NCBI GenBank assembly: GCA_016182185.1
Contig: JACOXU010000002.1
Span: 22,874-86,873 of the forward strand
Length of the DNA stretch: 64,000 nucleotides
DNA from: Candidatus Levyibacteriota bacterium
GTDB taxonomy: Bacteria > Patescibacteriota > Microgenomatia > Levybacterales > UBA12049
Reading direction: 5' to 3'
The position numbers and the translations under genes are program-made. The first letter of the stretch is position 1; each line of letters begins with the position of its first letter. This document shows positions 8,205 to 16,739 of this stretch, piece after piece. The notes beneath the pieces are model-generated. The model was not told where the DNA came from. It searched no databases and worked only from the letters and a program-made list of their open reading frames with translations.

Positions 8205-8654
8205 ATGAAGTGTCCATACTGCGGATCGACGGAAACAGAAGTAGTTGAAACAAGAGACAGTGAAGATTTAGAAACAATAAGAAGAAGAAGATCATGCTTA
8301 ACATGCGATAAGCGATTTACAACATACGAAAGAGTAGAAAATATCAATTTAGTAGTAATTAAGAAAGACGGGAGAAGAGAACAGTTTAACAGAGACAAAT
8401 TAAAAAGCGGAATAATAAGGTCTTGCGAAAAAACAAAAGTATCGCTTGAGGACATAGAAAGAATTGTAACAGAGGTTGAAAGGGAGCTGCGAGGAGCAGA
8501 TTCACTGGAAATAGATAGTAAAAAAATAGGACAAATGGTAGCGACAAGACTCAAAAAGATAGATAAAGTTGCATATATCAGATTTTCAAGTGTTTTTAAA
8601 AGATTTGTAGATGTTGAGGATTTTGAAAAAGAAGTAAAGAGGCTGATAAAATAA
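8205..8654 (+). CDS. nrdR: Transcriptional repressor NrdR
   Basis: N-terminal zinc ribbon 'MKCPYCGSTETEVVETR...CLTCDKRFTTYE' followed by an ATP-cone; 149 aa. Confidence 0.9.
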   Translation: MKCPYCGSTETEVVETRDSEDLETIRRRRSCLTCDKRFTTYERVENINLVVIKKDGRREQFNRDKLKSGIIRSCEKTKVSLEDIERIVTEVERELRGADSLEIDSKKIGQMVATRLKKIDKVAYIRFSSVFKRFVDVEDFEKEVKRLIK

Positions 8655-9073
8655 TGAAACAATTAAAAACAGAAATTATTGCCCTTTGCGATTATGCAAG
8701 CGTATCGAGAGAAGGAAAGTTAAGTATTAATGGGATTTTTGATGAGATAAGAGTTCAGCAATTTCCAGGAGGATTGTCTCGTGCATTTTTTGTAGCAACA
8801 GTTAATGGAGCCCCGGTAACTAAATATAAACTAAATTTAAAAATAGAACCATCTAAGGGTCTTGCTGGGGAGCAGAGTAGCTTTAATCTTGATACCTTCA
8901 CTGGCCCTAATGGCAAGAATAATTTAATAGTAGAACTCGCAGGTCTCGGATTTAAAGAAGAAGGTCATTACAAGTTTATTTTAAGCGAGGGAGATAAAGA
9001 GATTGACTCAACAGTTTTAAAAGTTTTTCAAAAGGATAAATATGCTACTAAGGATATAAAATTATCAAATTAA
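8654..9073 (+). CDS. Hypothetical protein, translationally coupled to nrdR
   Basis: ATG overlaps the nrdR stop (TAATG); 139 aa with no known motif. Confidence 0.45.
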   Translation: MKQLKTEIIALCDYASVSREGKLSINGIFDEIRVQQFPGGLSRAFFVATVNGAPVTKYKLNLKIEPSKGLAGEQSSFNLDTFTGPNGKNNLIVELAGLGFKEEGHYKFILSEGDKEIDSTVLKVFQKDKYATKDIKLSN

Positions 9074-9394
9074 TATGAGCAAATCGAGGTCAAATAGTTA
9101 TATTTTTAATTTATTCCCAATTAATGTATCTATATGTAATGGTAGGCATGATAGAGTTTTAATAAAAGGAAATTCTAATAGAATTACTACATCAGATACC
9201 AGTAATGGAGCTTCTTTGAAGGATCTAAGCGACAAATCTTTGGCAACCGTAACTCCTTTTACCAAATTAGTTATCTTTATTAAAGATATTGTTAATAGTC
9301 CGACATATAGTGAATTTTTATTAAAAACCATATTGCCAGTTGGTATTTATTTATTCAATGGTAGATCACCACCATTTTTTAATTAACAAAATTT

Positions 9395-11890
9395 ATGAAG
9401 CTTGATGGAATAAGAAATAAAGTATTTTTGGACAGATATGCTCTTAAGGGAGTCAAAGGAGAACTCTTAGAACATACACCCCAAGAAATGTGGAAGAGGG
9501 TCGCCCGGGGGATTGCCGAGAATGAGAAAAAAGCTGTAAGAAAACACTGGGAAAAAGAATTCTACAACGTAATGAGTGACTTTAAGTTTGTTCCGGGTGG
9601 AAGAATCTTGTCTGGTGCCGGAACAAATTATGAGGTTACTTATTTTAATTGTTTTGTTATTCCATCACCCAAAGATTCAAGAGAGGGAATTTTGGAATCC
9701 CTAAAACAATTAGTAGAAATTCAGTCAAGGTCTGGTGGCGTAGGTCTTAATCTTTCATCCTTAAGACCAAGAGGCGCTCGTGTTAAAAAGGTCAATGGAA
9801 CTTCTTCAGGTCCTGTGACATGGGCTGGACTTTTCTCCTACGCAACGCATGATGTCGTCCAGCAGGGAGGAACAAGAAGAGGTGCAACCATGCTTATGCT
9901 TTGGGATTGGCATCCTGATATCGAGGAATTCATTACTGTCAAGCAGGATCTCTCAAAAATAAATGGCGCCAATCTCTCAGTTTGTGTTTCTGATTCTTTC
10001 ATGGAAGCGGTCAAAAAGGACAAAGATTGGAGTTTGATTTATCCTGATCTGGATGATCCAAAATATGATGAGAAATGGGATGGTGAGATAGATCAATGGA
10101 AAAAAATGGGCGGGAAAATAAAAGTCTATAAAACTATAAAGGCCCGGGATCTTTGGAATCTTATCTGCGAAGCAGCATGGAGATCTGCTGAGCCAGGCCT
10201 TCATTTTCTTGAGAGAAGCAACAAGAGAAGCAACACCTGGTATTTTGAAAAATTAATCGCCACGAATCCCTGCGGTGAACAGCCATTGGGACCCTGGGCA
10301 GTTTGTAATCTCGGAGCTATGAATTTGGCAGTATATGTAAAACCTGCCTCGCAGCAAGGCGGGAACGGCGAATTTGATTACAAGAATTTTGGGAAAGATG
10401 TCAAAACCGCAGTGAGATTCTTAGATAATGTTATTGATAAAACATACTATTTTTTCAAAGAAAATGAAAAAATCGCCAAAGAGATAAGAAGAACCGGTCT
10501 TGGCATCATGGGCTTGGGAGATGCGCTTATTAAGATGAAAGTAAGATACGGATCCGATGAATCTTTGGAAATAATTGATAAAATATTTGAGACACTTAGA
10601 AACAGTGCCTATGAGGCCTCTTCTGATATTGCCAGAGAAAAGGGTGTATTCCCGAAATTTAACAAGGCAAAATACATGAAGGGGTACCATATCAAAGAAC
10701 TTCCTGAGGAAATTCAAAAGAAAATTACCAAACAGGGCATAAGAAATGCGGTCCTTCTTACCATTGCTCCAACCGGTACCACATCTCTTCTTTCAGGTGT
10801 TACTTCAGGAATTGAACCTGTTTATGAATTTACATTTATTCGTCGAGATAGAACTGGAGAACATATAATGTACCATCCGCTATATGAAGAGTGGAAAAAA
10901 GAAAACCAAGAGAGAGAAAAATCCTTCGACTCCGTTCAGGATAGACCAGAGTATTTTGTCAGCGCAAATGATCTTACCCCTCTTGAACATGCTCAGGTCC
11001 AGGCAGTTGCCCAAAAATATATCGATGCATCAATCTCAAAAACAGTCAATGCGCCAAATGCACATACCGTTGAAGATGTAAAGACACTTTACATGGCAGC
11101 TTATGATTTGGGACTTAAAGGTGTAACCTACATGAGAGATGGATCAAGAGAAGGAGTTCTCACCCGAGTCGAGGAGAAAAAAGAAGAAGTCAAACAGGAG
11201 AAAGCCCTAACGCCTCTTGGTAAGCCTGTTATTCCGCGACCGATGCAGCTTGAGGGAGTAACTTATGCAATCCAAACGCCGGTAGGCAAGACTTATATCA
11301 CGATTAACCACGATGAAAAAAGAGAACCATTTGAAGTATTTATAACCATCGGCAAATCAGGTTCTGACGTTGCGGCAATGGCAGATGCATTGGGGCGAAT
11401 GATCTCTGTAAACCTTCGTCTTATTGGCGGCTTGACGCCTAGAGAGCGCATAAGACAAGTTGTAGCACAACTTGCTGGAATAGGCGGAGCCAGAAGTGTT
11501 GGATTTGGCAAAGACAAAGTCAGATCCTTGCCTGACGCAGTCGCAAAAATACTGTCTATACATTTTGACTTTGCAGTTAATGGAAATGTGGAGGACAGAA
11601 ATAAAATTATTGCAAATGGACATGCTCCGGAGAATATCTCAGCTTCTTTAAATGGCTCAGCTAAGAATGGAAGTCATGAGGAGGAAAAAACAGAGGATCC
11701 TGAGATAGTTAAATTACAGCAGTTGCCTCTTGTAGGACAGGCATCTGGAGTTTTTGCCGAAGATAAATCCTCTCTTGATATGGAAGCCGGAACCGGACTT
11801 TATGATATCTGTCCTGAATGTGGAGCCGGAAGCCTAGCATATGAAGAAGGCTGTAGGAAATGCTACAGCTGTGGTTATTCCGAATGCTAG
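9395..11890 (+). CDS. nrdJ: Adenosylcobalamin-dependent (class II) ribonucleoside reductase
   Basis: 831 aa; RNR catalytic-core motifs ('NPCGEQPL', 'TIAPTGTTS') and a C-terminal CxxC...CxxC zinc ribbon 'CPECG...CRKCYSCG'. Confidence 0.85.
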   Translation: MKLDGIRNKVFLDRYALKGVKGELLEHTPQEMWKRVARGIAENEKKAVRKHWEKEFYNVMSDFKFVPGGRILSGAGTNYEVTYFNCFVIPSPKDSREGILESLKQLVEIQSRSGGVGLNLSSLRPRGARVKKVNGTSSGPVTWAGLFSYATHDVVQQGGTRRGATMLMLWDWHPDIEEFITVKQDLSKINGANLSVCVSDSFMEAVKKDKDWSLIYPDLDDPKYDEKWDGEIDQWKKMGGKIKVYKTIKARDLWNLICEAAWRSAEPGLHFLERSNKRSNTWYFEKLIATNPCGEQPLGPWAVCNLGAMNLAVYVKPASQQGGNGEFDYKNFGKDVKTAVRFLDNVIDKTYYFFKENEKIAKEIRRTGLGIMGLGDALIKMKVRYGSDESLEIIDKIFETLRNSAYEASSDIAREKGVFPKFNKAKYMKGYHIKELPEEIQKKITKQGIRNAVLLTIAPTGTTSLLSGVTSGIEPVYEFTFIRRDRTGEHIMYHPLYEEWKKENQEREKSFDSVQDRPEYFVSANDLTPLEHAQVQAVAQKYIDASISKTVNAPNAHTVEDVKTLYMAAYDLGLKGVTYMRDGSREGVLTRVEEKKEEVKQEKALTPLGKPVIPRPMQLEGVTYAIQTPVGKTYITINHDEKREPFEVFITIGKSGSDVAAMADALGRMISVNLRLIGGLTPRERIRQVVAQLAGIGGARSVGFGKDKVRSLPDAVAKILSIHFDFAVNGNVEDRNKIIANGHAPENISASLNGSAKNGSHEEEKTEDPEIVKLQQLPLVGQASGVFAEDKSSLDMEAGTGLYDICPECGAGSLAYEEGCRKCYSCGYSEC

Positions 11891-11929
11891 AGCTTGATTA
11901 AAAGAGCTTTCTATTTTAAAATCATAAAA

Positions 11930-12031
11930 CTTAAGCATAGGTAATTACGGTGGATATCCGTAGCTGTGCCGCAACTGTAAAAGCCAGAAAACTATGCTAA
12001 AAAAGTTTTCCCGAGCAGGAAATTAAGATTT
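11930..12031 (+). promoter_or_regulatory. Candidate leader RNA element with antiterminator upstream of pduO
   Basis: P1-like pairing GCATAG (11935-40) with CTATGC (11994-99), enclosing 'ACGGTGGATATCCGTAGCTGTGCCGCAACTGT...AGCCAG', which weakly resembles the cobalamin-riboswitch core (GGUG.AA.UCC...GC.G..CCGC.ACUGU...AGCCAG). CCCGAG (12010-15) can pair with CTTGGG (12038-43) as an antiterminator. Confidence 0.25.
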
Positions 12032-12061
12032 ATCCTTCTTGGGAACAAGAAGGATTTTTTT
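12032..12061 (+). terminator. Intrinsic terminator hairpin directly abutting the pduO ATG
   Basis: 10-bp stem atccttcttg/caagaaggat with a ggaa loop, followed by TTTTTT(T) and then ATG at 12062. Confidence 0.55.
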
Positions 12062-12607
12062 ATGCCAATTTATACCAAAAAAGGTGATAAAGGAAGAACG
12101 TCTCTTTTTACTGGGAAAAAGGTTTCAAAAACTGCAGCAAGAATAGAGGCGATAGGAACTATAGACGAGTTAAATAGCACGATAGGGTTTACAATATCAA
12201 ATATAAAAAATAAAAAATCAAAGATTAAGGAAGAATTAATTGAAATTCAGAGAGATTTGTTTGAAATTGGTGCATCTTTGGCAAATCCATCAACGTTTAG
12301 GAAACTTAAAATTTTAGAGAGGGTTTCACATTTTGAAAAGTTCATAGATGAGATGACGGAACAGATGCCTAAACTTTCAAATTTTATTCTCCCAGGAGGA
12401 ACAACTGCTGCTTCATATTTGCACATCGCCCGTACAGTCTGCCGAAGAGCAGAAAGAAGACTGGTTGCCTTATCACACAAAGAAAGGATTGATAAAAAAA
12501 TCTTAGTTTATATCAACCGACTCTCGGATTTATTTCTAACCATGTCAAGATTCGTGAATTTTAAAAGTGGCAAAGAGGAAACAATCTGGAAAGGAGACCA
12601 TAAATGA
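12062..12607 (+). CDS. ATP:cob(I)alamin adenosyltransferase, PduO-type
   Basis: 'MPIYTKKGDKGRTSLFTGKKVSK...IEAIGTIDELNS' is the characteristic PduO/MMAB N-terminus; 181 aa. Confidence 0.8.
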   Translation: MPIYTKKGDKGRTSLFTGKKVSKTAARIEAIGTIDELNSTIGFTISNIKNKKSKIKEELIEIQRDLFEIGASLANPSTFRKLKILERVSHFEKFIDEMTEQMPKLSNFILPGGTTAASYLHIARTVCRRAERRLVALSHKERIDKKILVYINRLSDLFLTMSRFVNFKSGKEETIWKGDHK

Positions 12608-13884
12608 TAGCTGTCGAAGCCCGTCCATCAGTTTTTAAAACCGAGGACGAAAGCCTCACGGGAAATCCTTTGGCAAAAGAGATAAGATATTTTGATCTGA
12701 ACTGGAGACGGGAAGGGTTGCCATCTGACTGGTATAACCTGAACGAAATTGGATTTAGTATGAATGGGCAAATGAATCTTCTTCAAGGATTGGATCAGGA
12801 GTCAAAGTCAATTTGGCTAAGACAAACAAAAAGAGATATTTTGGGTTTTGGCTTAGAATACCTTCGGCAAGGTATAGTTTTTCCATTCGAATACGAAGTT
12901 ACGGAAGTTGAGGGAGAACGGGATCTTATAGATTCTGAATATGGAAAAAGATTACTTGATACTGTTGATAAAAAGGAAAGAGATGGGTATGTTCTCTCAT
13001 CTCTTCGGATAATTCAGGAACATTTATTAAAAAAAGATGGGACAAGCGCCACGATGGTAAGCCCTTTGGGCTGGACAGGTCTTAAAACTGATAGGGGAGA
13101 AGATATCTTATATCAAGATACGCAAGTATATTTCTTAAGAAGAAAAGAAAATACGATTATCGGAACAACCTTTAGAACTGATTTCAATTTTGCCGAGACC
13201 AGAGAAGCGATCAGAATTTTAACAGGGAAAGAACTCCCTGAAAATGCGTCTGTGATGGATTATATAAAGACTCTTTCTCTGGAAGATTCTTCGGAAAGAC
13301 ATGAAGAAGATATTGTATTTGATTTACTTTCTTCGAGGAAAAATATTTCAGGTGAAGATAAGTCTGCATATAAAGATAAAACATGGAGAGATATGTTCCA
13401 AGCTCTTAAAAATAGAAATTTTCTTTACGATTTTGATGAACAGGTAAAGCAAATGATTGGCGAATTTGAAGATTATGTAGTTTCAAATAATCTTTCGAAA
13501 GCTGAAATCCGCAAGGCACTTGCCGCAACAATACTTAGGATATCCAAACACGCTTTATTCGGTCAAGATGATAGGGAGTATAGGTATTTAAAGACTGCTT
13601 ACCATAGAAACAAAGACCATCTTGATACAAGAACAATAACATATGGAGAAGTTTTTGAAAAAGTTAAAGAACTTCCGGGGTGCGCAGGAGGGGGATCAAA
13701 AACAAGCTCAATAGAATCTATAACGGATAGAAGTATCAGTATATTTGAGGATCTGGGATACGATTTTGATCAACCAGGCCCATGTAAAAAATGCGGAAGC
13801 GATACCAGGTGTGGACCGTGTGGAATTTGCAAAAGCTGCGATATTTCAATACGAAGAAAAGAAGCTTTCAAAATTGCTGCGTGA
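12604..13884 (+). CDS. Hypothetical protein with C-terminal Cys-rich zinc-knot (CKKCGSDTRCGPCGICKSCD)
   Basis: ATG overlaps the pduO stop (ATGA); 426 aa; no known catalytic motif. Confidence 0.5.
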   Translation: MIAVEARPSVFKTEDESLTGNPLAKEIRYFDLNWRREGLPSDWYNLNEIGFSMNGQMNLLQGLDQESKSIWLRQTKRDILGFGLEYLRQGIVFPFEYEVTEVEGERDLIDSEYGKRLLDTVDKKERDGYVLSSLRIIQEHLLKKDGTSATMVSPLGWTGLKTDRGEDILYQDTQVYFLRRKENTIIGTTFRTDFNFAETREAIRILTGKELPENASVMDYIKTLSLEDSSERHEEDIVFDLLSSRKNISGEDKSAYKDKTWRDMFQALKNRNFLYDFDEQVKQMIGEFEDYVVSNNLSKAEIRKALAATILRISKHALFGQDDREYRYLKTAYHRNKDHLDTRTITYGEVFEKVKELPGCAGGGSKTSSIESITDRSISIFEDLGYDFDQPGPCKKCGSDTRCGPCGICKSCDISIRRKEAFKIAA

Positions 13885-13942
13885 TGATACTGTGAGCCAA
13901 ATGTAATGACACGATTCTAAATTCGTGTTATCATGTTTACAT

Positions 13943-14380
13943 ATGGATAGCAAGATTCAGTCAGGCTCACAACAACCATCGGGAGGTGCGGATGTTTCAG
14001 GAGTTGAAGTAGGATCTGGAGCAGTTTCTCCAGTTTCTGTCGCACCGAAAAAAGAAGGTGCACCAGTAGAAATCAGACCCTCAGAACCGGAATTAAATAT
14101 TCATCCTGAAATTGCCGAAATTGGTGTTGAAAAGGCAGAGAAACACCCCGTTTTAACAGCAGAACACGAAGAGGCGGGACTAAGACTTTCTGAGCCAAGG
14201 CCAATTATTTCAGATAAACCCCAAACACAGTCATTACCAGATTTACCGTTATCAATAGGTCAGGCAAAACATATCGCCAAAGTTGGAAAAACCGATGACA
14301 AGAAATCATGGCTTGCCAACCTGGTCCTTAGGGCATTTGAAAAAATTAGAAAGAAAGAATTAGAACATGCAGCCGCTTGA
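13943..14380 (+). CDS. Hypothetical Pro/Glu-rich, probably disordered protein
   Basis: The track ORF starts with GTG at 13925; the first ATG is at 13943 ('MDSKIQ'). Its stop overlaps the start of the next gene. Confidence 0.35.
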   Translation: MDSKIQSGSQQPSGGADVSGVEVGSGAVSPVSVAPKKEGAPVEIRPSEPELNIHPEIAEIGVEKAEKHPVLTAEHEEAGLRLSEPRPIISDKPQTQSLPDLPLSIGQAKHIAKVGKTDDKKSWLANLVLRAFEKIRKKELEHAAA

Positions 14381-16739
14381 TTTACAAAATTTAACTACAT
14401 TTTTGACTGTTTTTTTGGCAGGGCTTTTGGCCTCGATTTTGATTGTTTTAGGCCTTATTTTACTAGGTTATATTTTTATTATTTTATACAGAAATCGCAA
14501 TCGGGAAAAAGAATCCCTTGATTCGATTCTTCTTCAAGTTTCACTGCCAAGAGATAATGAAATCAAAATTGACGCGGCAGAACAAATGTTTTCAAGCTTT
14601 GCTTCAATTAGAAAAGGCGGAAGATTCTCTTTTTTAAATCCTCAGCCACATCTCTCCTTTGAAATTGTCGGAATGCCTGAAGATATCCGCTTTTATGCAA
14701 ATACACCAAACAATTTAAAAGATTTTGTTGAGAAGCAAATAAATGGTGCATATCCTGAAGCAGAAATAAAAGAAGTAGATATTAAAAATTTCGCCAAAGA
14801 GGGCTATGCAATCGGAAATGAGTATAATATTTTTTCAGGGGAGGGAAAGGTCGCTTTTGCCAGTCTGAGACCTAAATCTTCAAGCTATATGCCTATTAAA
14901 GTCTTCAAAGATTTACCTACCGACCCACTGTCCTCCATTACTTCTATTTTGGCCAAGATGACCGAGGGAGAGGGTGCGGCAATTCAAATAATGGTGAGTC
15001 CGTCTGATTCCAAATGGAAAAAATTAGGAAGAAGCTATATTGCCAAAACCAAAAAAATGGAATCAAATCCCGAGACCGCAAAATATGCGGCTGACCCCAA
15101 AGAGCTTGAAGGAATTGAGAACAAAATTGGAAAAGCAGGTTTTGATGTAGTGGCAAGAATTGTTATTTCTTCAAAAACAAATGAAGCGGCCAAGGCTCAT
15201 CTGAGTAATATTATCTCAAGTTTCAGTCAATTCGACGGGCTTAATTCCTTCACCAAAAATTCTCATCGATTCAAGGGATTATTCATGAAGGATTTTATTT
15301 ATCGCTTTATGCCGATGCGAGGACAGACAGGAGTCTTGTCGAGCGAAGAATTGGCAACCATTTTTCATTTTCCCAACAAAAGCGTTGAAACCCCTCATAT
15401 TCATTGGATTACTGCCAAGAGAGCTCCTGCTCCTGCTCAAATTCCTCAAAGAGGACTATTTTTGGGGAAAAGCACTTATAGGGGGATCGTTAAACCGGTT
15501 CATATTAGCCTTGATGATCGCAGGCGTCACATGTACATCATCGGGAAGACAGGAACCGGAAAATCAGAATTTTTAAAATCCATGATTATGCAGGATATCA
15601 GAAATGGAGAGGGACTGGCTGTGATTGATCCTCACGGAGATTTGATAGACGATATTTTAAAACTTATTCCGCCCCAGCGATCTGAGGATGTAATACTTTT
15701 TGATCCTTCAGACACACAAAGACCAATGGGTTTTAACATGCTTGATGCAAGAACAGAGGAACAGAAACATTATGTAGTTTCATCAATTATTGGGCTTATG
15801 TACAAGCTTTTTGATCCCCATCAAACAGGAATCATCGGGCCTAGGTTTGAACATGCGATAAGAAATGCGATGCTTACTGTCATGTATGAGTCGGGAAGTA
15901 CATTTGTTGAAGTCGTAAGAGCATTGACTGATGCGACTTATGTGCAAGAGCTTTTACCCAAAGTTCAGGACCCTATTATCAGGCGCTATTGGACAGATCA
16001 GATCGCCCAAACTTCGGATTTCCATAAATCCGAGGTCTTGGATTATATAGTTTCTAAGTTCGGAAGGTTTGTTACCAATAAGATGATCAGAAATATTATC
16101 GGTCAATCACAGAGTTCATTTGATTTCCGAAATGTAATGGATGAGCAGAAAATTTTGCTCATCAATCTTTCAAAAGGAAAAATAGGGGAAGAGAATTCGA
16201 ATTTCTTGGGATTAATATTGGTTCCTAAAATTCTGGTGGCTGCGATGTCTCGGCAGGATGTGCCGATTGAGCAAAGAAAAGACTTCTTTCTTTATGTTGA
16301 TGAGTTTCAAAACTTTGCGACTCCTGATTTTGCCCAAATTCTTTCTGAAGCTCGAAAGTACCGCCTTAATTTAATAGTCGCAAACCAGTTTATCGGGCAA
16401 ATGGAAGAGGAGGTTAAAAACGCCATCTTTGGAAACGTGGGTAGCGTCATGGCCTTCAGAGTCGGAGTAACAGATGCAAATTATCTTCAGCATGAATTCC
16501 AACCAGTCTTTAACGAATCAGATCTTATAAATGTTGAGAGATTTAATACCTATATGAAGACAATCGTGGGAGGGGAGCCCGTACTGCCATTTTCTATGGA
16601 TTTGACACGGGATATGAGTGAAGAAAAAAAGATTGCCAATCAAAGAGTTTCAGAACTGGTCCGCGAACTTTCGCGCTTAAAGTATGGGAAAGAAGCGGAA
16701 ATTGTTGAGGCAGAAATCTCCAAAAGGGCCAAACTCTAA
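14367..16739 (+). CDS. Membrane-anchored P-loop ATPase of the FtsK-HerA/VirD4-TraD (DUF87-like) superfamily
   Basis: 34-residue N-terminal hydrophobic segment; Walker A 'IIGKTGTGKSEFL' around residue 390; 'FLYVDEFQNF' Walker B-like; 'YRLNLIVANQ' conserved C-terminal motif; 790 aa. Confidence 0.6.
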   Translation: MQPLDLQNLTTFLTVFLAGLLASILIVLGLILLGYIFIILYRNRNREKESLDSILLQVSLPRDNEIKIDAAEQMFSSFASIRKGGRFSFLNPQPHLSFEIVGMPEDIRFYANTPNNLKDFVEKQINGAYPEAEIKEVDIKNFAKEGYAIGNEYNIFSGEGKVAFASLRPKSSSYMPIKVFKDLPTDPLSSITSILAKMTEGEGAAIQIMVSPSDSKWKKLGRSYIAKTKKMESNPETAKYAADPKELEGIENKIGKAGFDVVARIVISSKTNEAAKAHLSNIISSFSQFDGLNSFTKNSHRFKGLFMKDFIYRFMPMRGQTGVLSSEELATIFHFPNKSVETPHIHWITAKRAPAPAQIPQRGLFLGKSTYRGIVKPVHISLDDRRRHMYIIGKTGTGKSEFLKSMIMQDIRNGEGLAVIDPHGDLIDDILKLIPPQRSEDVILFDPSDTQRPMGFNMLDARTEEQKHYVVSSIIGLMYKLFDPHQTGIIGPRFEHAIRNAMLTVMYESGSTFVEVVRALTDATYVQELLPKVQDPIIRRYWTDQIAQTSDFHKSEVLDYIVSKFGRFVTNKMIRNIIGQSQSSFDFRNVMDEQKILLINLSKGKIGEENSNFLGLILVPKILVAAMSRQDVPIEQRKDFFLYVDEFQNFATPDFAQILSEARKYRLNLIVANQFIGQMEEEVKNAIFGNVGSVMAFRVGVTDANYLQHEFQPVFNESDLINVERFNTYMKTIVGGEPVLPFSMDLTRDMSEEKKIANQRVSELVRELSRLKYGKEAEIVEAEISKRAKL

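What the first reader, a model, noticed from the sequence alone, without database searches (positions are those of the whole stretch)
11930..12061. Attenuator with a terminator abutting the pduO start codon and a cobalamin-riboswitch-like core upstream
A perfect 10-bp hairpin plus T7 ends 1 nt before the ATG of the PduO-type adenosyltransferase. An alternative CCCGAG/CTTGGG pairing would sequester the terminator's 5' arm, giving a classic antiterminator. Upstream, a P1-like stem (GCATAG/CTATGC) encloses ACGGUGGAUAUCCGUAGCUGUGCCGCAACUGU...AGCCAG. This resembles the conserved GGUG.AA.UCC / GC.G..CCGC.ACUGU core and the start of the B12 box, but in a much shorter RNA than canonical riboswitches. 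AdoCbl feedback on the enzyme that makes AdoCbl, sitting right behind a B12-dependent RNR, would be logical. A leader this small would be a new minimal variant, or it may be a different ligand or protein-mediated attenuator.
Basis: partly seen in the sequence, partly recalled or inferred. Interest (0 to 1): 0.6.

Follow-up and report, generated by a model that had tools for sequence, protein, structure and literature searches.

The report
Class-II cobalamin riboswitch before pduO
The leader between the B12-dependent ribonucleotide reductase gene and the B12 adenosyltransferase gene is a genuine vitamin-B12 riboswitch of an already described short class, so it is a real but ordinary regulator, though its regulon in these tiny-genome bacteria includes an uncharacterised protein family worth a look.

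Summary
Rfam's AdoCbl-II model (RF01689, the short 'AdoCbl-variant' class-II cobalamin riboswitch) matches window 11922-12002 end to end at 45.8 bits (gathering score 36.5, E 7.6e-8). So this is the known short class, not a new minimal variant.

The window is from a Candidatus Levybacteria (Patescibacteria/CPR) genome. The same aptamer lies after nrdJ in many relatives. In 81 related leaders, P1/P3, P4 and P5 covary.

It is the expected partner of aptamer loop L5 (GCC) in the regulatory kissing loop.

The CCCGAG/CTTGGG pairing is part of a 10-bp antiterminator (12010-12020 with 12033-12043, about -15 kcal/mol). It competes with weak P13 (-3.4) and the terminator (-14.2). The terminator's 3' arm holds the Shine-Dalgarno AAGGA and its U-tract abuts the ATG. 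This design recurs in relatives (ATG abuts in 29 of 43; SD-like in 41 of 43).

Most likely it is a B12-repressed OFF switch on pduO and the overlapping unknown gene.

Side lead: that gene belongs to a CPR-only family with no known domain or fold, repeatedly under cobalamin-riboswitch control.

The parts
9395..11890 (+). nrdJ, class II (B12-dependent) ribonucleotide reductase. It is the upstream gene and the likely source of read-through transcription into the leader.
   Evidence: Pfam Ribonuc_red_lgC at 2.6e-130, plus Ribonuc_red_lgN and TSCPD. The gap from the nrdJ stop to the aptamer helix is 43 nt here and 24 nt or less in 20 of 42 related loci.
11922..12002 (+). Class-II cobalamin riboswitch aptamer (extent of the Rfam AdoCbl-II, RF01689, match).
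   Evidence: 45.8 bits against a gathering score of 36.5, E 7.6e-8, model positions 1-81 of 81.
11934..11998 (+). Well-paired aptamer core. P1/P3 helix 11934-11940 with 11992-11998. J3/4 GUAAU 11941-11945. P4 11946-11950 with 11958-11962, with the L4 T-loop UGGAUAU. P5 11965-11967 with 11971-11973, with L5 GCC at 11968-11970. P6 11975-11977 with 11985-11987. J6/3 AAAA 11988-11991.
   Evidence: Sequence, Rfam alignment and covariation in 81 related leaders: 83% of cells paired against 35-45% for slid controls. Changes on both sides occur in 11 of 12 P1/P3 pairs, 5 of 6 P4 pairs and 2 of 3 P5 pairs.
12007..12022 (+). P13 regulatory hairpin: stem UUUCC (12007-12011) with GGAAA (12018-12022), loop L13 CGAGCA (12012-12017). 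Proposed kissing-loop partner of L5: G11968-C12016, C11969-G12015, C11970-G12013, G11971-C12012, with A12014 bulged.
   Evidence: Folds at -3.4 kcal/mol. The loop motif CG-N(1-2)-GC is present in 88 of 93 related leaders against 17.5 in shuffles. It has a flanking stem of 3 bp or more in 83, against 2.6 in full shuffles and about 25 when only the 5' flank is shuffled. Stem pairs switch between C-G and U-A. The kissing-loop pairing itself is inferred from complementarity and from PMC5028336 and PMC10327014.
12010..12043 (+). Antiterminator: 12010-12020 (CCCGAGCAGGA) pairs with 12033-12043 (UCCUUCUUGGG), 10 bp with one C.U mismatch. It is mutually exclusive with both P13 and the terminator.
   Evidence: -14.7 kcal/mol. 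It is the minimum-energy structure of the nascent RNA up to 12045-12050. In 43 relatives that have terminators, the P13 segment against the terminator 5' arm plus loop averages -14.4 kcal/mol, against -5.5 for shuffled segments.
12032..12061 (+). Intrinsic terminator: a 10-bp perfect stem, GGAA loop and a run of seven U (12055-12061; the first U is the last stem base). Its 3' arm contains the pduO Shine-Dalgarno AAGGA (12050-12054). The U-tract serves as the SD-to-ATG spacer.
   Evidence: -14.2 kcal/mol. In relatives the ATG abuts the T-run in 29 of 43 and an SD-like sequence lies in the 3' arm in 41 of 43.
12062..12607 (+). pduO, a PduO-type ATP:cob(I)alamin adenosyltransferase. It is the first regulated gene.
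   Evidence: Pfam Cob_adeno_trans at 4.3e-60. NCBIfam TIGR00636 PduO_Nterm at 207.8 bits against a cutoff of 108.45.
12604..13884 (+). unk426, the second regulated gene. Its start overlaps the pduO stop codon (ATGA). It belongs to a CPR-restricted family of unknown function that is repeatedly under cobalamin-riboswitch control.
   Evidence: No Pfam or NCBIfam match. No PDB match by sequence or by fold. The family has 359 clusters. Homologs sit next to pduO, DUF4430 and DUF6580 genes and behind RF00174 or RF01689 riboswitches.

Best explanation
The nrdJ-pduO spacer of this Candidatus Levybacteria genome carries a class-II cobalamin riboswitch (Rfam RF01689) that most likely acts as a B12-repressed OFF switch on pduO and the translationally coupled unknown gene.

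Shown:
- The aptamer (core 11934-11998) is a bona fide, covarying member of the family.
- A conserved hairpin P13 (12007-12022, loop CGAGCA) follows it.
- Nearly the whole of P13 is complementary to the 5' arm and loop of a strong terminator whose U-tract abuts the pduO ATG.
- The terminator's 3' arm holds the Shine-Dalgarno sequence.
- The three structures are energetically balanced: P13 -3.4, antiterminator about -15, terminator -14.2 kcal/mol.

Inferred, by analogy with the dissected env8 and P. megaterium metE riboswitches:
- When a corrinoid occupies the four-way junction, loop L5 (GCC, then G) kisses loop L13 (CG-A-GC, with the A bulged) and locks P13.
- The antiterminator then cannot form, so the terminator forms. 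Transcription stops just before pduO, and in any full-length transcript the ribosome-binding site is buried.
- Without ligand, the weak P13 melts. Its nucleotides pair with the terminator's 5' arm as that arm emerges, the polymerase reads through, and the SD is left free.
- The leader is probably reached by read-through from nrdJ. It would then uncouple the B12-salvage genes from the B12-consuming reductase within one transcription unit.
- The ligand is probably AdoCbl, because the P1-P3 helix is continuous with no J1/3 loop and the feedback logic fits. This is not established.
For: - Rfam match: 45.8 bits against a gathering score of 36.5, full length.
- The same aptamer lies just upstream of pduO or a B12-uptake module in related genomes.
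- Aptamer covariation in 81 leaders: 83% of cells paired against 35-45% in slid controls; 385 cells changed on both sides against 143 in shuffles.
- P13 loop motif and stem are far above shuffles: 88 and 83 of 93 against 17.5 and 2.6. P13 stem pairs switch between C-G and U-A.
- Antiterminator complementarity is conserved: mean -14.4 against -5.5 kcal/mol, and 95% of leaders are at or below -8. Both sides change together in, for example, L058, L063 and L072.
- Nascent-RNA folding shows the antiterminator forming first unless P13 is held.
- The ATG abuts the T-run in 29 of 43 leaders and an SD-like sequence lies in the 3' arm in 41 of 43.
- In most (30) of the 41 leaders without a terminator, the ATG lies 6-15 nt after the start of the P13 3' strand, so P13 then holds the SD as in env8.
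- Regulated genes are coherent with B12 acquisition: DUF4430 (transcobalamin-type domain, PMC4350170), DUF6580 membrane protein, PduO.
Against: - No experimental data exist for this RNA or any CPR riboswitch (a literature search found none).
- L5 and L13 are both essentially invariant in my set, so the kissing loop rests on complementarity, not covariation.
- My metagenomic set was selected with a pattern that fixed L5, P6 and J6/3. Many sequences are related, so counts are not independent events.
- Whether intrinsic termination works this way with CPR RNA polymerase is unknown. The hairpin could act mainly on translation.
- Ligand selectivity cannot be read from sequence (PMC6158498, PMC9600662).
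- A weak sigma-70-like match (11894-11922) leaves an own promoter possible, though such matches are not above chance.
Confidence: 0.85

Rival explanations
1. Same riboswitch, but the hairpin works mainly or only at the level of translation. It buries the Shine-Dalgarno AAGGA in its 3' arm, the U-run is merely the SD-to-ATG spacer, and little real termination occurs.
For: The SD lies in the 3' arm and the ATG abuts the U-run. About half of the related leaders (41 of 84) have no terminator and are purely translational, with the SD in the P13 3' strand. The founding class-II example, env8, is translational (PMC5028336).
Against: A 10-bp G+C-containing stem followed by seven U is a canonical intrinsic terminator. 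A run of at least four U after the stem (usually six or seven) is kept in nearly all of the 43 terminator-type leaders, more than a spacer needs. The two modes are not exclusive.
Confidence: 0.2
2. One reading: a new minimal cobalamin-like variant, a riboswitch for a different ligand, or a protein-mediated attenuator.
For: The leader is short. J6/3 is AAAA rather than the family consensus AGCG, and the J1/3 loop is absent. So the binding pocket is not identical to env8.
Against: There is a full-length match above the gathering score to the curated class-II model. The short size is the class's defining trait. Members lacking J1/3 are already known (PMC6158498). All regulated genes are B12-related. 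Homologs of the co-regulated gene sit behind classic RF00174 riboswitches.
Confidence: 0.04
3. The hairpin is simply the constitutive terminator of nrdJ, and the aptamer-like sequence is a relic or chance match.
For: The hairpin lies downstream of nrdJ, and no strong promoter is seen between nrdJ and pduO.
Against: The terminator ends at the pduO ATG, leaving no room for a promoter. A constitutive terminator would therefore silence pduO and unk426. The aptamer, P13 and the antiterminator complementarity are all conserved and covary.
Confidence: 0.02
4. It is an ON switch: ligand binding promotes read-through, as in the A. halodurans cobT corrinoid riboswitch.
For: Activating corrinoid riboswitches exist (PMC10327014). 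Induction of an adenosyltransferase by its unadenosylated substrate would be conceivable.
Against: In the activating type, P13 overlaps the terminator and is itself the antiterminator. Here P13 (12007-12022) and the terminator (12032-12055) are compatible, and it is the melted P13 that pairs with the terminator arm. That is the repressing architecture.
Confidence: 0.04

Closest known systems
AdoCbl-variant / class-II (Cbl-II) cobalamin riboswitches, Rfam RF01689 (Weinberg et al. 2010, PMC2864571). The structural archetype is env8HyCbl (PMC5028336).
   Same: Compact aptamer of about 80 nt with a four-way junction (P3-P6), an L4 T-loop and no peripheral P6 extension. A downstream P13 hairpin whose loop kisses L5 with an unpaired nucleotide in the loop-loop helix. 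Repression on ligand binding.
   Different: env8 is purely translational and has a J1/3 T-loop that tunes selectivity toward MeCbl/HyCbl. The window's RNA has a continuous P1-P3 helix, J6/3 of AAAA, L5 of GCC, L13 of CGAGCA, and a terminator-based platform. The family was first described from marine metagenomes. These members are from groundwater and soil Patescibacteria.
Priestia megaterium metE repressing corrinoid riboswitch (expression platform dissected in PMC10327014).
   Same: The same logic. The L5-L13 kissing loop stabilises P13 so the terminator forms. When unbound, P13 nucleotides pair with the terminator's 5' arm as an antiterminator.
   Different: That aptamer is the long class-I type (RF00174), and only the 3' side of P13 joins the antiterminator. 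Here the 5' stem, loop and 3' stem of P13 all pair with the terminator arm and loop, and the terminator also hides the SD and abuts the ATG.
Enterococcus faecalis eut (EutX/Rli55-type) AdoCbl riboswitch, a Cbl-II member without J1/3 (mentioned in PMC6158498; its AdoCbl binding is from my own knowledge of DebRoy 2014 and Mellin 2014).
   Same: A class-II core that lacks an identifiable J1/3 element. It is the basis for guessing AdoCbl as the ligand here.
   Different: The enterococcal element works within a trans-acting sRNA that sequesters a response regulator. It is not a cis terminator switch in front of B12-salvage genes.
Classic cobalamin riboswitch (RF00174; for example E. coli btuB, B. 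subtilis btuF).
   Same: The same clan (CL00101), the same ligand family and the same type of regulon (B12 uptake and processing). It even replaces the class-II element in front of unk426 homologs (L168) and after pduO (L014).
   Different: It is much longer, with the P6 extension and B12 box. The window's element scores best with the class-II model.

Membership tests
Class-II cobalamin riboswitch (Rfam RF01689, AdoCbl-II / AdoCbl-variant) | Sequence and structure match to the curated covariance model at or above its gathering score | tested here: met
   45.8 bits against 36.5, model positions 1-81 of 81, E 7.6e-8. Relatives score 37.5-58 bits.
Class-II cobalamin riboswitch (Rfam RF01689, AdoCbl-II / AdoCbl-variant) | Four-way junction with P3, P4 (T-loop L4), P5 and P6, supported by covariation | tested here: met
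   83% of cells paired against 35-45% in slid controls. Changes on both sides occur in P1/P3, P4 and P5. P6 could not be tested because the search pattern fixed it.
Class-II cobalamin riboswitch (Rfam RF01689, AdoCbl-II / AdoCbl-variant) | Absence of the class-I peripheral extension on P6 (P7-P11 and the long B12-box region) | tested here: met
   P6 is a 3-bp stem with a 7-nt loop (11975-11987). The whole aptamer is about 65-81 nt.
Class-II cobalamin riboswitch (Rfam RF01689, AdoCbl-II / AdoCbl-variant) | Regulatory hairpin P13 presented as a stem-loop, whose loop L13 can pair with L5 leaving at least one unpaired nucleotide (PMC5028336) | tested here: met
   The P13 hairpin is conserved and covarying. 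L5 GCCG is complementary to L13 CG-N-GC, and the bulged N varies (A, U, C or UU). The pairing is inferred from complementarity only, because L5 and L13 show no covariation.
Class-II cobalamin riboswitch (Rfam RF01689, AdoCbl-II / AdoCbl-variant) | Direct binding of a cobalamin or other corrinoid | not testable with these tools
   Needs in-line probing, ITC or a reporter assay.
env8-like subgroup of class II (MeCbl/HyCbl-selective) | J1/3 internal T-loop between P1 and P3 that contacts J6/3 (PMC6158498) | tested here: not met
   In the window, 7 contiguous pairs are followed by a 1x4 internal loop. Relatives in front of pduO or DUF6580 have 7-13 contiguous pairs. So the element should not be filed with the env8-like subgroup. 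It is closer to members that lack J1/3.
Repressing transcriptional corrinoid riboswitch platform (P. megaterium metE type, PMC10327014) | P13 and the terminator are compatible with each other; P13 nucleotides form an alternative helix with the terminator's 5' arm; P13 alone is weaker than that antiterminator | tested here: met
   P13 -3.4, antiterminator -14.7 and terminator -14.2 kcal/mol, with co-transcriptional folding order. Conserved in 43 relatives. Functional repression was not tested.

The most novel reading that the evidence does not exclude
The riboswitch itself is a known class. The novel reading concerns its regulon. In Patescibacteria it marks a minimal B12-salvage regulon attached to nrdJ. 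The co-regulated unk426 superfamily would then be a new B12-handling protein, for example a corrinoid reductase, a dealkylase, or a chaperone feeding PduO or NrdJ. The superfamily has no known domain or fold, a conserved Cys in a glycine-rich loop, and a C-terminal Cys4 ribbon reminiscent of the NrdJ tail. A lesser variant: the subgroups with and without J1/3 in the same genomes sense different upper-ligand forms of B12, and so separate control of uptake and adenosylation from control of unk-superfamily genes.
Probability: 0.4. Interest if true: 0.6.

Novelty: new member of a known kind. Interest (0 to 1): 0.3.

Why it matters
For the riboswitch itself the value is modest. It correctly annotates a regulator, and it shows that the kissing-loop-gated P13/antiterminator/terminator logic, dissected so far in only a few model riboswitches, is used in a very compact form across Patescibacteria. 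In that form the terminator doubles as an SD sequestor and touches the start codon.

It also documents that these reduced-genome, B12-auxotrophic bacteria place a B12-salvage module directly behind their B12-dependent ribonucleotide reductase. The module comprises a binder, a membrane protein, an adenosyltransferase and an unknown protein, and it is throttled by an operon-internal riboswitch.

The practical pay-off is the regulon. Riboswitch-based guilt by association singles out an uncharacterised, CPR-restricted protein superfamily, and DUF6580, as candidates for missing steps of B12 uptake or processing.

Tried and rejected
- Minimum-energy folding of the whole 174-nt leader does not recover the aptamer and is only marginally better than shuffles (z -1.98). 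This was uninformative, as expected for a tertiary-structure-dependent junction.
- The promoter scan gives one weak sigma-70-like match (11894-11922, 9 of 12). Such matches are fewer than expected by chance in the region (8 against 14.1), so there is no evidence for an own promoter.
- I looked for L5/L13 covariation in aptamers not selected by my pattern (L005, L006, L042 and the second L056 copy). All keep GCC(G) and CG-N-GC, so there is no covariation test.
- For unk426, Pfam, NCBIfam and a PDB sequence profile gave nothing. Foldseek against the PDB gave nothing either (best E 0.019, TM 0.22).
- DUF6580 and DUF4430 representatives have no informative PDB sequence relatives.
- Literature searches for Patescibacteria plus cobalamin riboswitch and for DUF6580 returned nothing.
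- Considered and rejected: ON-switch architecture, nrdJ-terminator-only, and a protein-mediated attenuator (see rival explanations).

Full report
**1. What is in the sequence**

- nrdJ ends at 11890. Pfam gives Ribonuc_red_lgC at 2.6e-130 plus TSCPD.
- pduO starts at 12062. Pfam gives Cob_adeno_trans at 4.3e-60. NCBIfam gives PduO_Nterm at 207.8 bits.
- A perfect 10-bp hairpin (12032-12041 with 12046-12055, loop GGAA) is followed by a T-run ending at 12061, directly against the ATG. It is the top-listed, longest-stem terminator-like site in 9000-14500.
- GCATAG (11935-11940) pairs with CTATGC (11992-11997).
- CCCGAG (12010-12015) can pair with CTTGGG (12038-12043).

**2. Identity of the RNA**

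A scan of the whole window against Rfam 15 gives three hits at gathering threshold: two tRNAs and RF01689, called AdoCbl-II.
- RF01689 is the family first published as 'AdoCbl-variant' (PMC2864571).
- It matches 11922-12002 on the + strand over the full model at 45.8 bits, against a threshold of 36.5, with E 7.6e-8.
- In a permissive local search nothing else comes close; the next family scores 20.6 bits at E 0.3.
- The alignment lays out the class-II architecture: an outer helix, P4 with the GUGnAnnUC-type T-loop, P5 with a small L5, and P6 as a 3-bp hairpin. There is no peripheral extension.

**3. Source and conservation**

The pduO product and the leader are identical in four groundwater-type assemblies. 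The neighbouring protein is recorded at NCBI as a hypothetical protein of a Candidatus Levybacteria MAG.

A genome-collection scan with PduO returned 43 loci, mostly Patescibacteria.
- In these, nrdR, nrdJ, pduO and a VirD4/TraG-like gene form a conserved block.
- Rfam finds the same class-II aptamer just upstream of pduO in L008-L013 and L017, and elsewhere in the block in L006, L007 and L042.
- L005 has a sub-threshold copy with the same platform.
- Other relatives (L014, L015, L016, L022, L033, L046) have no riboswitch in the nrdJ-pduO gap, so the element is lineage-restricted rather than universal.

A metagenome scan with an 18-base pattern specific for this subtype gave 112 unique leaders, including copies in loci fetched earlier. 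Of these, 93 have the aptamer signature. Rfam independently confirmed the aptamer in 8 of the 9 loci I re-scanned.

**4. Covariation of the aptamer**

I used an 81-sequence alignment (A2) and the class-II structure.
- 83% of cells are standard pairs, against 35-45% when partners are slid by 1-3 columns.
- 385 cells carry changes on both sides, against 143 +/- 10 in shuffles.
- P4 has changes on both sides in 5 of 6 pairs, P5 in 2 of 3, and P1/P3 in 11 of 12.
- P6, L5 and J6/3 were fixed by my search pattern and say nothing.
- The sequences are related, so these are not independent events, but the slid control keeps relatedness.

**5.

Every relative carries CCCGAGCA(A)GG or a covarying version a few nucleotides after P1, whether or not a terminator follows.

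Anchoring only on the loop motif CG-N(1-2)-GC:
- The motif occurs in 88 of 93 leaders, against 17.5 in shuffles.
- It has 3 or more flanking pairs in 83, against 2.6 in full shuffles and about 25 when only the 5' flank is shuffled.

The stem pairs switch between C-G and U-A, for example UCC...GGA, CUUU...AAAG and GCC...GGC.

In the window this hairpin is 12007-12011 with 12018-12022, loop CGAGCA, at only -3.4 kcal/mol.

Published work shows three relevant things.
- Cobalamin riboswitches couple ligand binding to the platform through a kissing loop between L5 and L13.
- L13 must be presented as a hairpin.
- At least one unpaired nucleotide always interrupts the loop-loop helix (PMC5028336).

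Here L5 plus its closing G reads GCCG (11968-11971). L13 reads CG-A-GC, which gives four G-C pairs around a bulged A. In relatives the flanking CG and GC are invariant, while the middle position varies (A, U, C or UU). That is the pattern expected for a bulge. Because both loops are invariant there is no covariation proof, so this step is inferred.

**6. The switch**

Positions 12010-12020 pair with 12033-12043, 10 bp with one C.U mismatch, at -14.7 kcal/mol. This helix consumes the P13 5' stem, the loop and part of the 3' stem on one side, and the terminator's 5' arm and loop on the other.

Folding nascent-RNA prefixes shows the following order.
- P13 forms first.
- The antiterminator takes over once 12041-12045 are made (-14.8 kcal/mol).
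- P13 plus the terminator (-17.6 together) wins only after the full 3' arm is out.

This is the balance described for the P. megaterium metE riboswitch: weak P13, stronger antiterminator, and the kissing loop tipping the choice (PMC10327014).

The arrangement is conserved.
- Of 84 leaders with P13, 43 have a terminator.
- The P13 segment against the terminator 5' arm plus loop averages -14.4 kcal/mol, against -5.5 for shuffled segments. 95% are at or below -8.
- Both sides change together in variants such as L058 (CUUCGAGCAAAGG with CCUCUGCUUGAAG), L063 and L072.

P13 and the terminator do not overlap. This is therefore the repressing architecture, not the activating one (PMC10327014).

**7. 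Terminator, SD and start codon**

The terminator's 3' arm contains AAGGA (12050-12054), 7 nt before the ATG. The U-tract is the spacer.
- In the 43 terminator-type relatives, the ATG abuts the T-run in 29 and an SD-like sequence lies in the 3' arm in 41. One hairpin can thus both terminate transcription and mask the ribosome-binding site.
- In 30 of the 41 leaders without a terminator, the ATG lies 6-15 nt after the start of the P13 3' strand (GGA...). There P13 itself holds the SD, as in env8.
- Because the terminator touches the ATG, pduO cannot have a promoter between them. The hairpin therefore cannot be a plain constitutive nrdJ terminator unless pduO is silent.

**8. Transcription unit**

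- The only sigma-70-like match in the spacer (11894-11922) is weak, and such matches are not enriched.
- Across 42 loci with nrdJ upstream, the distance from the nrdJ stop to the first paired aptamer nucleotide has a median of 36 nt. It is 24 nt or less in 20 loci, and 43 nt in the window.
- I infer that the leader is usually reached by read-through from nrdJ. It would then be an operon-internal attenuator that lets nrdJ be made while throttling the B12-salvage genes.

**9. Regulon**

The first genes behind the 84 classified leaders (those with a scorable downstream ORF) fall into these groups.
- A membrane-anchored protein group whose representative carries DUF4430: 29 leaders. DUF4430 is the domain found at the C-terminus of transcobalamins (PMC4350170).
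- PduO: 28 leaders.
- A diverse unknown superfamily: 15 leaders.
- DUF6580 membrane proteins: 3 leaders.

Synteny shows the full module is nrdJ, riboswitch, DUF4430, DUF6580, pduO, then optionally unk426, unk151 and the VirD4-like gene. The window has a reduced version with only pduO and unk426. Everything points to B12 capture and adenosylation being repressed when B12 is sufficient.

**10. Ligand**

Class-II members range from MeCbl/HyCbl-selective to AdoCbl-selective. The J1/3 loop is a key determinant, and some members such as the E. faecalis element lack J1/3 altogether (PMC6158498).
- The window's RNA has 7 contiguous P1-P3 pairs and then a 1x4 internal loop.
- Its closest relatives have 7-13 contiguous pairs and no J1/3.
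- The leaders in front of the unknown superfamily keep a 5' internal loop.
- J6/3 is AAAA rather than the model consensus.

I consider AdoCbl the more likely ligand, from the feedback logic and the resemblance to J1/3-less members. This is a guess that only binding assays can settle.

**11. Side lead: unk426 (12604-13884)**

Its start overlaps the pduO stop codon, so it is co-regulated.
- It has no Pfam or NCBIfam match and no PDB relative by sequence profile.
- A confident AlphaFold model (pLDDT 82, pTM 0.74) has no significant Foldseek match in the PDB (best E 0.019, TM 0.22).
- An exhaustive profile search finds 359 clusters, all aligning over the full length. None of ten divergent members has a known domain.
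- In four independent contexts it follows pduO, with DUF4430, DUF6580 or a BtuF-like Peripla_BP_2 gene nearby.
- It is preceded by a classic RF00174 riboswitch in L168 and by a class-II one in L169.
- Shorter relatives of 275-335 aa share a W.SP.G motif, a G.SC(G)GG motif and a C-terminal Cys4 ribbon. Each sits directly behind a translational class-II riboswitch.

Control by two riboswitch classes and constant linkage to pduO make a B12-related role likely. What that role is remains unknown.

**12. Verdict**

- The element is a new member of a known kind, in an under-studied phylum, with a neat but not unprecedented compact platform.
- Interest for the riboswitch is low to moderate. The co-regulated unknown protein family is the more promising lead.

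Noticed in passing
window 12604-13884 (+); homologs in L005, L007, L013, L127, L153, L168-L172: unk426 is a CPR-restricted protein family of 359 clusters. It has no Pfam, NCBIfam or PDB match by sequence or fold, despite a confident AlphaFold model. It is always linked to pduO and B12-uptake genes, and sits behind either class-II or classic cobalamin riboswitches. It has a conserved G-C-x-G-G-G loop and a C-terminal Cys4 ribbon.
   Followed up: partly
L048, L050, L052, L068, L074, L122, L129, L132, L136, L142 (first ORF after the riboswitch): These are shorter proteins of 275-335 aa that share motifs and the C-terminal zinc ribbon with unk426. Each sits directly behind a translational version of the riboswitch, with the SD in the P13 3' strand. 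Their leaders keep a J1/3-like internal loop, unlike the pduO-type leaders.
   Followed up: partly
L055 3933-5853; L145 10440-12360; L172 659-2335; L153: The full B12-salvage module in relatives runs riboswitch, DUF4430 (transcobalamin-type domain), DUF6580 (a 6-TM-like membrane protein with no literature) and then pduO. DUF6580 is thus a candidate corrinoid transporter. The window has no DUF4430 or DUF6580 gene within its 64 kb.
   Followed up: partly
L056 510-587 and 1090-1161: Two class-II cobalamin aptamers lie in series on one contig, each in front of its own gene.
   Followed up: no
L139 3489-8498; L078 1694-5182; L101 7804-11346; L071: In several relatives nrdJ aligns in two or three separated pieces. 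This suggests inteins, introns or inserted genes within the reductase gene.
   Followed up: no
L127 2367-2598 (-): A group I intron (Rfam RF00028, 110 bits) lies on a Patescibacteria-like contig about 900 nt downstream of the riboswitch-controlled gene.
   Followed up: no
window 8205-16739; L005-L047: The order nrdR, (DUF6941), nrdJ, pduO, ..., then a VirD4/TraG-like ATPase (DUF8128) is conserved across many Patescibacteria lineages. It is unexplained why a coupling-protein-like ATPase stays linked to the reductase cluster.
   Followed up: no
window 11891-11918: A weak hairpin (AGCUU...GAGCU) followed by a U-rich stretch lies right after the nrdJ stop codon. It overlaps the only sigma-70-like match in the spacer. 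It could be a leaky nrdJ terminator or nothing.
   Followed up: no
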